64,000 bases of DNA, from the NCBI RefSeq assembly GCF_009914755.1, contig NC_060941.1; one strand, 5' to 3'. Positions 33,056 to 33,325 of this stretch are shown in pieces (the first letter of the stretch is position 1; the number at the start of each line of letters is the position of its first letter). The DNA is from the human T2T-CHM13v2.0 reference genome, Homo sapiens. The position numbers and the translations under genes were made by a program. The notes under the pieces were generated by a model. It had not been told where the DNA came from. It ran no database searches and saw only the letters and a list, made by a program, of their open reading frames with translations.

Positions 33056-33325
33056 GGCCAGGCACCGTGGCTCTTGCCTGCAATCTCAGCAATTGGGAAG
33101 ATCTTGCTCACGTCCAGGAGTTTGAGATTAGCCTGAGCAACATGGGAAGCCGCCCTCTCTACAGAAAAAAGAAAAATATCAGCCAGGCATGGTGGTGAGC
33201 ATCTGCAGTCCCAGTTCTACTCAGGAGGCGGAGGTGGGAGGATTGTTTGAGCTCAGAAGGTTTAGGCTGCAGTGAGCCATGAACATGCCACTGCACTCCA
33301 GCCTGAACACTAGAGTGAGACTCTG
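33056..33325 (+). mobile_element. AluJ-like element whose left arm is exonised as NLRP1 exon 10
   Basis: ggccaggcaccgtggctc...gtccaggagtttgagattagcctgagcaacatgg...ctacagaaaaaa...agccaggcatggtggtg...gagtgagactctgt. Confidence 0.9.
33078..33158 (-). CDS. NLRP1: NLRP1 exon 10 (81 nt, Alu-derived; [27 protein letters not shown]), GC donor; alternative GT donor extends it to 33066 (+GKSH)
   Basis: ttttctgtAG|AGAGGGCG...TTGCAG|GCaag; phase 1-1; needed to reach the 1473-aa numbering. Confidence 0.92.

What the first reader, a model, noticed from the sequence alone, without database searches (positions are those of the whole stretch)
33064..33158. A coding exon of NLRP1 made from an antisense Alu, with competing GC and GT donors
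Seen: exon 10 lies wholly in the left arm of an AluJ. Its acceptor is the reversed mid-A linker (ttttctgtAG), the arm is about 12 nt shorter than consensus, and the exon is 81 nt and symmetric. It ends at a non-canonical GC donor (CAG|GCAAGA), with a GT donor 12 nt on that adds GKSH. Exons 9 and 11 would join in frame without it. Known: Alus are primate-specific and seldom enter principal protein isoforms. Inference: primates gained 27 aa in the LRR-FIIND linker of a fast-evolving pathogen sensor, possibly new protease bait or a regulatory spacer. The Alu origin may already be noted in exonisation surveys; I know of no functional test.
Basis: partly seen in the sequence, partly recalled or inferred. 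Interest (0 to 1): 0.8.

Follow-up and report, generated by a model that had tools for sequence, protein, structure and literature searches.

The report
Alu-born coding exon in NLRP1
One always-included coding exon of the human immune sensor gene NLRP1 is made from an old Alu repeat, which is already published, but the human copy of this exon has been unusually heavily rewritten compared with other apes and monkeys.

Summary
NLRP1 exon 10 (33078-33158, minus strand, 81 nt) lies inside the left arm of an antisense Alu. Its acceptor comes from the Alu's middle linker. It uses a GC donor, with a weaker GT donor 12 nt downstream that adds GKSH, and skipping it keeps the reading frame.

The core claim is already in print. 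Lin et al. 2008 list it as an AluJb antisense exon that is constitutively included by RT-PCR. Martinez-Gomez et al. 2020 list it among about 10 genes with an Alu in the principal isoform, adding 27 aa, with a supporting peptide.

The session added three points:
- The exon is found in simian NLRP1 proteins only: 28 of 32 simian proteins and 0 of 88 others.
- Other simians carry a 31-aa version that matches the Alu consensus frame.
- The human version lost 12 nt and has 10 of 25 sites replaced on the human branch since the orangutan split. A further 4 of 19 sites changed at the start of exon 11, against 21 of 1031 elsewhere.

I found no functional test of the exon. It sits in the LRR-FIIND linker ("Linker3"), most likely as a tolerated flexible insert. 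A gained regulatory role is possible but not shown.

The parts
33056..33325 (+). Full-length old Alu (AluJb in the literature). It is sense on the plus strand and antisense to NLRP1.
   Evidence: BLAST to about 35 window Alus at 68-77% identity. Rfam Metazoa_SRP hit on the right arm. Alignment to the window consensus. AluJb label from Lin 2008 and Martinez-Gomez 2020.
33078..33158 (-). NLRP1 exon 10, 81 nt, phase 1-1, lying in the antisense Alu left arm. It encodes residues 1019-1045.
   Evidence: The PeptideAtlas peptide [11 protein letters not shown] cited in the Martinez-Gomez supplement matches the translation.
33159..33180 (-). Acceptor: polypyrimidine tract plus a single AG, derived from the Alu's A-rich middle linker.
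   Evidence: The consensus reads TTTTTGTATTTTTAGTAG|AGAC and NLRP1 reads TTTTTCTTTTTTCTGTAG|AGAG. Three purines have become pyrimidines and the upstream AG is lost.
33072..33077 (-). Main donor, GC type: CAG|gcaaga.
   Evidence: It matches 7 of 9 positions of CAG|GTAAGT and has a predicted U1 duplex of -6.3 kcal/mol. The Alu consensus at this place reads CAG|GCGTGA.
33066..33077 (-). 12-nt extension used with the downstream GT donor. It adds GKSH.
   Evidence: Annotation gives an alternative exon 33066-33158. Translation. A human cDNA product, P0122, carries GKSH.
33060..33065 (-). Alternative donor ACG|gtgcct, which is weak.
   Evidence: It matches 4 of 9 consensus positions and has a predicted U1 duplex of -4.0 kcal/mol.
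33103..33104 (-). Junction of the 12-nt deletion relative to the Alu consensus and to the 31-aa exon of other simians (the residues NPPA are missing).
   Evidence: None of the 37 other matches in the T2T genome spans this junction.
33159..33670 (-). Short upstream intron of 512 nt. It contains the Alu right arm.
   Evidence: Schwartz 2009 reports that short flanking introns go with higher inclusion.
32759..33077 (-). Short downstream GC-AG intron of 319 nt.
32699..32758 (-). First 20 codons of exon 11, which share the human-lineage excess of replacements.
   Evidence: 4 of 19 sites changed in Homo only and 0 in Pongo only.
33326..33350 (+). T25 run where the Alu's A tail should be. It reads as A25 in the NLRP1 pre-mRNA.
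   Evidence: All 14 other window copies have the normal tail.

Best explanation
Exon 10 of NLRP1 is the left arm of an antisense AluJb that became an exon in the simian ancestor. In humans it is included in essentially all transcripts.

How the exon is recognised (inferred from the sequence):
- The Alu's middle linker has become a purine-free polypyrimidine tract with a single AG.
- The Alu's native CAG|GC site has acquired A at +3 and +4, giving a GC donor with near-full U1 complementarity.
- The competing GT donor 12 nt downstream is weak.
- Both flanking introns are short.
- The right arm cannot compete, because its upstream U tract is replaced by A25 in the pre-mRNA.

What the exon encodes (shown): residues 1019-1045, in the linker between the LRR domain and the FIIND ('Linker3').

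What it most likely does (inferred, not shown): it is a tolerated extra stretch of a flexible tether that varies in length between the autoinhibitory NACHT-LRR module and the FIIND-CARD effector part. It is probably not a domain with a fixed sequence requirement.

On the lineage to humans after the orangutan split, the exon lost 12 nt and had about 40% of its residues replaced.
For: Alu origin and anatomy.

Frame and peptide. The same peptide occurs in PDB human NLRP1 chains at 1019-1044.

Constitutive inclusion: Lin 2008 Table 2 and text report a single inclusion product in all tissues tested.

Principal isoform and peptide evidence: Martinez-Gomez 2020 Table 1 and one supplement row.

Donor strengths.

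Position between domains: the last Pfam LRR match ends at 936, LRR crystal constructs reach about 986, and the FIIND match starts at 1062 in the isoform lacking 30 aa, which is about 1092 in the canonical protein.

Linker length varies, measured between the same two anchors:
- 38-61 aa in 11 non-simian mammals;
- 73-83 aa in 4 mammals with an extended exon 11;
- 84-96 aa in 14 of the 15 simian models with both anchors that keep the exon and splice out the downstream intron.
Rat has 27 aa where human has 78.

Simian restriction: the peptide is present in 28 of 32 simian proteins. The other 4 are models that lack the exon. It is present in 0 of 88 non-simian proteins.
Against: - A linker indifferent to sequence does not predict the excess of replacements on the human branch. 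That excess is 10 of 25 sites in the exon and 4 of 19 at the start of exon 11, against 21 of 1031 elsewhere. Pongo shows 1 of 44 and 22 of 1031.
- The intron between the two exons is not comparably diverged.
- In mouse NLRP1b, Linker3 is needed for NT-CT autoinhibition (Zhou 2025), so the region can be functional.
- Models that skip the exon are predicted in orangutan, squirrel monkey and others, so inclusion may not be constitutive in every simian.
- Lin 2008 used agarose gels that probably cannot separate the 12-nt donor variants, so donor usage is unmeasured.
Confidence: 0.85

Rival explanations
1. The exon, together with the start of exon 11, is a functional element that positive selection rebuilt on the human lineage. 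One possibility is a new hydrophobic, helix-prone contact that contributes to autoinhibition, as Linker3 does in mouse NLRP1b. Another is a surface that escapes a pathogen factor acting near the FIIND.
For: - Localised human-branch excess: 14 of 44 sites against 21 of 1031 elsewhere, while Pongo shows 1 of 44 and 22 of 1031.
- Relative-rate tests for Homo against Pongo or Symphalangus: with Old World monkey outgroups, 10 vs 1 (p 0.012) and 10 vs 0 (p 0.002). With New World monkey outgroups they are weaker: 8 vs 2 (p 0.11) and 8 vs 1 (p 0.039).
- At least 15 nucleotide differences from Pongo in 81 nt, where about 3 are expected from the Alu-exon average in Lin 2008 (P 6e-7).
- Intron sequence between the exons is conserved between human and Aotus: 35 of 41 residues in one retained-intron block.
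- The human peptide is more hydrophobic (mean Kyte-Doolittle +0.55 vs -0.61) and has 1 proline instead of 3.
- Mouse Linker3 binds UPA and is required for autoinhibition.
- Some picornavirus 3C proteases cut NLRP1 nearer the FIIND and dampen activation, at unmapped sites (Tsu 2021).
Against: - No synonymous sites or orthologous DNA were available, so dN/dS was not computed.
- The implied rate, roughly tenfold neutral over 27 codons, is higher than selection on point mutations usually gives. That hints at a complex mutational event.
- Zhou 2025 report that human NLRP1 uses Linker1, not Linker3, for NT-CT binding.
- No structure prediction could be run.
Confidence: 0.3
2. The human-lineage burst is a mutational accident in an unconstrained linker. 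One or a few complex events (a deletion with clustered substitutions, or a short gene conversion) were followed by drift, with no functional consequence.
For: - The substitutions cluster around a 12-nt deletion.
- About half of the inferred changes are transversions. This is my reading of the codons, and is an inference.
- Non-human simians differ from their own consensus at only 1-7 of 30 sites, which is compatible with near-neutral drift.
- Linker length varies widely among mammals.
Against: - The excess also affects exon 11, which lies 319 nt away, while the intron between them is conserved.
- No other copy in the human genome could have served as a conversion donor. The best non-self match is 74-80% identical, with 40 of 1000 candidates scored. 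None of the 37 other matches spans the deletion junction.
- A compensated frameshift does not lower the number of events needed (worked by hand).
Confidence: 0.3
3. One reading: the exon supplies new protease bait, a 'tripwire' like Linker1.
For: - It lies N-terminal to the FIIND autocleavage site, in a linker.
- NLRP1 is known to be activated by cleavage in Linker1 (Chavarria-Smith 2016, Tsu 2021).
Against: - No cleavage in this segment is reported in the passages read.
- Tsu 2021 saw a single CVB3 3C product, mapping to residues 130/131. They describe cuts nearer the FIIND as attenuating activation, not activating it.
Confidence: 0.08
4. The human-versus-other-simian difference is an artefact of gene models, paralogy or a rare allele.
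For: The non-human sequences are mostly predicted models. One orangutan UniProt model (P0005) differs from the NCBI orangutan model inside the exon.
Against: - 18 models from 17 species, drawn from NCBI and UniProt, agree on the 31-aa type.
- The human type occurs in the T2T window, RefSeq-derived P0001, cDNA-derived P0122, PDB constructs and a mass-spectrometry peptide.
- Human and the others share states that depart from the Alu consensus (SHVAQA, LK, LD, K), so it is the same Alu copy.
- The 912-nt stretch between exons 9 and 11 holds only this one Alu.
Confidence: 0.05

Closest known systems
Antisense Alu exons arising from the left arm (the AEx-L class of Schwartz et al. 2009, 77 cases against 313 from the right arm)
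   Same: The Alu is antisense. The acceptor is built on the internal T-rich linker, the donor sits at the CAG|G(C/T) site near the Alu's 5' end, and the exon is primate-restricted.
   Different: Alu exons are almost always alternative, with mean inclusion of about 10%. This one is constitutive and coding. It also uses the GC form of the donor.
Alu sequence in principal protein isoforms (Martinez-Gomez et al. 2020: 10 genes plus the NPIPB family)
   Same: NLRP1 is on that list, with 27 aa, AluJb, a whole exon and peptide evidence.
   Different: Only NLRP1 and BEND2 gained a whole new exon rather than an extension of an existing one. The paper passages I read do not mention the arm, the GC donor, the 31-aa ancestral form or the human-lineage rewrite.
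Linker3 of mouse NLRP1b (Zhou et al. 2025)
   Same: It occupies the same position between LRR and FIIND, and it is also a lineage-specific gain. In mouse the active part arose by duplication of two exons in allele 1.
   Different: Mouse Linker3 binds UPA, and deleting it activates the inflammasome. For human NLRP1 the same paper assigns that role to Linker1. There is no sequence relationship to the Alu peptide.
NLRP1 Linker1 'tripwire' (Chavarria-Smith 2016; Tsu 2021)
   Same: It is a fast-evolving inter-domain linker of the same protein.
   Different: Linker1 shows recurrent positive selection across primates and has mapped protease sites. Here the excess sits on one branch and no cleavage is known.
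GC-AG U2-type introns
   Same: GC at +1/+2, with consensus at -3 to -1 and +3 to +5, and a normal AG acceptor.
   Different: None in kind. The GC is inherited directly from the Alu consensus.

Membership tests
Exonised antisense Alu, left-arm class | The exon lies within an Alu that is antisense to the gene. | tested here: met
Exonised antisense Alu, left-arm class | The acceptor uses the internal T-rich linker and the AG at the start of the left arm. | tested here: met
   alignment to the window consensus.
Exonised antisense Alu, left-arm class | The donor is at the G(T/C) site near the Alu's 5' end. | tested here: met
   CAG|GCGTGA in the consensus and CAG|GCAAGA here.
Exonised antisense Alu, left-arm class | Restricted to primates. 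| tested here: met
   Present in 28 of 32 simian proteins and 0 of 88 non-simian proteins. No tarsier protein was in the set.
Exonised antisense Alu, left-arm class | Alternative splicing with low inclusion. This is typical of the class but does not define it. | tested here: not met
   Lin 2008 RT-PCR shows only the inclusion form in all tissues tested. Not re-measured here.
AluJb subfamily | Diagnostic subfamily positions. | not tested
   The label is taken from two papers. No subfamily library was available. An old age is consistent with 24% divergence of the intronic arm from the window consensus and with presence in both platyrrhines and catarrhines.
GC-AG U2-type intron | GC at +1/+2, a strong remaining donor consensus and an AG acceptor. 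| tested here: met
Autoinhibitory Linker3 (as in mouse NLRP1b) | It binds the UPA subdomain of the C-terminal fragment, and its deletion causes spontaneous activation. | not testable with these tools
   Only literature context.
Protease 'tripwire' linker | Cleavage by a pathogen protease within the segment that activates the inflammasome. | not testable with these tools
   No report found in the passages read.
Protease 'tripwire' linker | Recurrent positive selection across primates. | tested here: inconclusive
   The excess is on the human branch only. The other simians differ from their consensus at 1-7 of 30 sites. No codon model could be run. Table S3 of Chavarria-Smith 2016 was not seen.

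The most novel reading that the evidence does not exclude
After the split from orangutans, selection rebuilt the far end of NLRP1's LRR-FIIND linker. In the Alu exon plus the first 20 codons of exon 11, 14 of 44 sites were replaced and four residues deleted, against 21 of 1031 sites elsewhere. This turned a polar, proline-rich Alu peptide into a hydrophobic, helix-prone segment. On this reading the segment now acts as a lineage-specific regulatory or pathogen-facing element of the human inflammasome. It would be a second fast-evolving linker beside the known Linker1.
Probability: 0.3. Interest if true: 0.65.

Novelty: already known. Interest (0 to 1): 0.4.

Why it matters
NLRP1 is the main inflammasome sensor of human skin and airway epithelium, and human and rodent NLRP1 differ in what activates them. 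It is documented that a constitutive coding exon of this gene is Alu-derived, but the inflammasome papers I read do not discuss it.

The added observation gives a concrete, cheap test. The human exon differs sharply from the version kept by other apes and monkeys, in a linker that is functional in mouse NLRP1b. Comparing human, ancestral-type and exon-deleted NLRP1 would show whether part of the human-specific behaviour of NLRP1 maps here. If nothing changes, the exon stands as a clean example of a neutral Alu insert fixed in a principal isoform.

Tried and rejected
- Chimpanzee and gorilla state. Three protein searches returned no cluster with a Pan or Gorilla representative. Only P0001 and P0122, both with human representatives, carry the human-type exon, so the timing within African apes stays open.
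- Gene-conversion donor. Two searches of the T2T genome found none.
- Compensated frameshift as the cause of the many residue changes. Worked by hand, it needs no fewer events, so I rejected it.
- 'Homologous insert' in hippo, rhinoceros, colugo and mouse lemur at the same junction. It turned out to be a 5' extension of exon 11, matching human intronic 32768-32815, and is unrelated to the Alu.
- Structure prediction of the linker plus FIIND.
- Table S3 of Chavarria-Smith 2016, which lists positively selected codons outside Linker1.
- PMC13429693 (46 mentions of NLRP1) concerns a DPP9 isoform and is not relevant.
- The search 'NLRP1' + 'exon 10' returned MEFV exon 10 papers only among the 15 of 80 listed.
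- The search 'NLRP1' + chimpanzee + gorilla + orangutan + FIIND returned 0 papers.
- The search 'NLRP1' + 'human-specific' + Alu + coding showed nothing on the human rewrite in the titles and abstract starts of the 12 of 16 papers listed.

Full report
**Observation**

Read on the NLRP1 (minus) strand, the interval shows the acceptor ...tatttttcttttttctgtag|AGAGGG, an 81-nt exon at 33158-33078, and the donor CAG|gcaaga. A second donor, ACG|gtgcct, lies 12 nt further on. Of the 13 donors of the 14 NLRP1 coding exons in the window, this is the only GC donor.

Splicing the annotated exons gives one open frame. The exon is in phase 1-1 and encodes (E)[26 protein letters not shown](E). The long form adds GKSH. 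Omitting the exon joins GSE|ESS in frame with no stop. With three exons beyond the window's high end, this is exon 10 of 17.

**Alu origin and anatomy**

The stretch 33048-33326 matches about 35 other Alu copies in the window at 68-77% identity. Rfam finds a 7SL-like monomer on the plus strand at 33182-33331 (E 1.6e-10, below gathering), which is the right arm. The Alu is therefore sense on the plus strand and antisense to NLRP1.

I built a majority consensus from 14 full-length window copies and aligned it:
- The exon is the antisense left arm.
- The acceptor is the middle linker. The consensus TTTTTGTATTTTTAGTAG|AGAC has become TTTTTCTTTTTTCTGTAG|AGAG. Three purines changed to pyrimidines and the upstream AG is gone.
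- The donor is the Alu's own CAG|GCGTGA, now CAG|GCAAGA.
- The downstream GT arose from CACC|GCGCC changing to CACG|GTGCC.
- One 12-nt gap relative to the consensus lies inside the exon, at 33104|33103.

Divergence from this consensus is 35 of 146 (24%) in the intronic right arm and 26 of 80 (32.5%) in the exon. In the exon's 3' half it is 15 of 39. The consensus is a mix of subfamilies, so these figures overstate the age.

**Donor competition and exon definition**

The GC donor matches 7 of 9 positions of CAG|GTAAGT and has a predicted U1 duplex of -6.3 kcal/mol. This fits the GC form being the selected transcript.

The long form is real. The annotation lists 33066-33158, and a human cDNA-derived product (P0122) carries GKSH. 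Models with GKSH or SKSH also exist for Chlorocebus, Rhinopithecus, Saimiri and Callithrix. Relative usage of the two donors was not measured.

The flanking introns are 512 and 319 nt. Schwartz et al. 2009 (passages and section 6 read) report that short flanking introns and strong donors go with higher inclusion. They count 77 left-arm against 313 right-arm exonisations.

An oddity may matter here. The Alu's tail on its own strand is T25 (33326-33350), where all 14 other window copies have the normal A tail. The NLRP1 pre-mRNA therefore carries A25 where right-arm Alu exons normally find their U tract. That this disables right-arm competition is my inference.

**Position in the protein**

PDB chains of human NLRP1 (6x6a_B, 6x6c_E) contain the peptide at 1019-1044. 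The upstream exon maps to 988-1017 and the downstream exon to 1046-1098. LRR crystal constructs end at about residue 986. The Pfam FIIND match starts at 1062 in the isoform that lacks 30 residues, which is about 1092 in the canonical protein. The exon therefore lies in the LRR-FIIND linker, called Linker3 by Zhou et al. 2025.

**What is already published**

- Lin et al. 2008 (passages including Tables 1 and 2 read) list the NLRP1 exon as AluJb, antisense and coding, with constitutive inclusion. RT-PCR showed a single inclusion product in all surveyed tissues.
- Martinez-Gomez et al. [quoted passage not shown] NLRP1 and BEND2 are the only whole-exon cases. The supplement row gives AluJb, whole exon, 93 nt and the peptide [11 protein letters not shown]. 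That peptide is in my translation.

The Alu origin, the principal-isoform status and translation are therefore known.

Searches with the terms 'NLRP1' plus each of the following found no functional test of the exon and no mention of the points below:
- exonization, Alu exon or Alu-derived;
- 'LRR and FIIND' with linker, or Linker3;
- positive selection;
- chimpanzee/gorilla/orangutan;
- human-specific;
- exon 10.

**Who has the exon**

A search with the NACHT exon returned 120 NLRP1 proteins. The Alu peptide is present in 28 of the 32 simian proteins. The four without it (P0003, P0011, P0028, P0031) are models that lack the exon. It is present in 0 of the 88 other proteins, which include lemurs, lorises, galago, colugo, rodents and other mammals. 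The three weak hits in hippo and deer belong to an extension of exon 11. No tarsier protein was in the set.

Rat NLRP1 in the PDB shows no match to the peptide. It has 27 residues where human has 78 between two alignable anchors, and one of those anchors is weak (E 0.2).

The linker length between fixed anchors, all:
- 38-61 aa in 11 non-simians;
- 73-83 aa in 4 non-simians with the extended exon 11;
- 84-96 aa in 14 of the 15 simian models that have both anchors and keep the exon.
The exception, P0017 (Chlorocebus), misplaced the upstream anchor and gave 757 aa.

**The human copy is the odd one**

Eighteen non-human simian models from 17 species carry a 31-aa exon with the consensus (E)[30 protein letters not shown]. 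This is the open frame of the Alu consensus with a handful of changes. Each model differs from that consensus at 1-7 of 30 positions.

Human differs at 12 of 26 aligned positions and lacks NPPA, which is the 12-nt gap. The minimum number of nucleotide differences in the exon, human against each species, is as follows:

| Compared with | Exon 10 | Other exons |
|---|---|---|
| Pongo | 15 of 81 | 3 of 90 and 9 of 165 in the flanking exons; 2 of 222 in the ZU5 exon; 0 of 90 in the last LRR exon |
| siamang | 13 of 81 | not listed here |
| Old World monkeys | 12-15 | not listed here |
| New World monkeys | 16-17 | not listed here |

Lin 2008 give 3.69% as the average human-orangutan difference for Alu exons. 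Fifteen or more differences then has P of about 6e-7. Using the flanking-exon rate instead gives about 1e-5.

Changes were polarised with three agreeing Old World monkey outgroups:

| Segment | Homo-only | Pongo-only |
|---|---|---|
| Alu exon | 10 of 25 sites | 1 |
| First 20 codons of exon 11 | 4 of 19 sites | 0 |
| All other window-encoded NLRP1 | 21 of 1031 sites | 22 |

Relative-rate tests gave these results:
- Homo against Pongo or Symphalangus with Old World monkey outgroups: 10 vs 1 (exact p 0.012) and 10 vs 0 (p 0.002).
- With New World monkey outgroups: 8 vs 2 (p 0.11) and 8 vs 1 (p 0.039).
- Control, Pongo against siamang: 3 vs 2.

**Controls and alternative explanations for the burst**

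- Same Alu copy. Human and the others share departures from the Alu consensus (SHVAQA, LK, LD, K), and the 912 nt between exons 9 and 11 hold only this one Alu.
- Not specific to CHM13. The human type also occurs in RefSeq-derived, cDNA-derived, PDB and mass-spectrometry sequences.
- No conversion donor. The best other match in the T2T genome is 74-80% identical, with 40 of 1000 candidates scored. None of the 37 other matches to the 3' part crosses the deletion junction. Most human-specific states move away from the Alu consensus.
- Not regional. Two New World monkey models retain the downstream intron as open frame. Against human, one intronic block is 35 of 41 identical, while the exon is about half identical.
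- Not a frameshift. A compensated frameshift needs as many events as the in-frame alignment (worked by hand).

Two things could not be done. First, chimpanzee, bonobo and gorilla sequences were not retrievable: three searches gave only clusters with human representatives for the human type. "Human lineage" here therefore means "after the orangutan split". Second, no orthologous DNA was available, so synonymous changes and dN/dS are unknown, and the counts above are lower bounds from protein.

One change has a plausible splicing reading. A Theropithecus model (P0014) ends the exon after ...AKASQ and continues with K. That implies use of the Alu's internal AAA|GTGCTG donor. In human the site reads AAT|TGCTGA and has no GT. 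This is an inference.

**How it most likely works**

Shown:
- The exon is Alu-derived, constitutive in human tissues (by a 2008 RT-PCR), translated, and placed in Linker3.
- The linker varies in length across mammals.

Inferred:
- The exon is a tolerated addition to a flexible tether between the NACHT-LRR module and the FIIND.
- Its recognition rests on the improved linker tract, the single AG, the strong-context GC donor, the short introns and the absence of a right-arm competitor.

The human-branch excess argues that sequence in this segment has mattered, or else that an unusual mutation hit it. The human peptide is more hydrophobic (mean Kyte-Doolittle +0.55 vs -0.61) and has one proline instead of three.

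Two literature results bear on function:
- In mouse NLRP1b, Linker3 binds UPA and is needed for autoinhibition. The same paper assigns that role to Linker1 in human NLRP1 (Zhou 2025, abstract and passages).
- Tsu et al. 2021 (passages) note cuts by some 3C proteases nearer the FIIND that dampen activation, at unmapped sites.

None of this tests the exon.

**Verdict**

The finding is real and correctly described, but its core is already in print.
- the arm and splice-site anatomy;
- the simian-wide 31-aa ancestral form;
- a localised human-lineage rewrite of the exon and of the start of exon 11.

The rewrite deserves a look in ape genomes and a simple swap experiment.

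Noticed in passing
window 33326-33350 (+), with flanks 33047-33055 and 33351-33360: The Alu ends in T25 on its own strand instead of an A tail. All 14 other full-length copies in the window have the normal tail. Direct-repeat-like flanks (AGATGAAAGG and AGATGGCAGG) bracket the Alu plus the T run. A micro-inversion of the homopolymer would explain this, but it is unexplained.
   Followed up: partly
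window 33353-33474 (+): The annotated lncRNA LOC124903902 exon starts right after T25+AG and ends at g|gtgggt. The odd T run therefore serves as a ready-made polypyrimidine tract for a plus-strand exon.
   Followed up: partly
window 32768-32815 (-), intron just upstream of exon 11: The human intronic sequence translates in frame as [15 protein letters not shown], followed by AVSE|ESSPE. It matches protein segments that are exonic in hippo, white rhinoceros, colugo and a mouse-lemur model. This looks like a conserved upstream alternative acceptor of exon 11.
   Followed up: partly
window 32759-33077 (-): Two New World monkey models (Aotus X2 P0033 and Plecturocebus P0025) read the intron after the Alu exon as open coding sequence, which is intron retention. 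In human the intron is 319 nt, not a multiple of three.
   Followed up: no
window 33085-33095 (-), within exon 10: A Theropithecus model (P0014) implies use of the Alu's internal AAA|GTGCTG donor. The human sequence at that place reads AAT|TGCTGA, so this cryptic donor is absent in human.
   Followed up: partly
window 32699-32758 (-), start of exon 11: Four of 19 sites were replaced on the human branch ([16 protein letters not shown] against EGSSPEVAQVEPLCLP in other apes). These include the residue I recall as the polymorphic V1059M position; that identification is from memory and was not checked.
   Followed up: partly
window 33102-33309: There are weak Rfam hits, below gathering scores, to the Alu-derived miRNA families mir-3135, mir-1268 and mir-1285 inside the Alu. 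This is expected for Alu sequence and is not evidence of miRNA genes.
   Followed up: no
P0005 vs P0006 (orangutan): Two orangutan models differ inside the Alu exon (DWSILLSAGIT against [16 protein letters not shown]). This could be an assembly or model difference, or a real variant.
   Followed up: no
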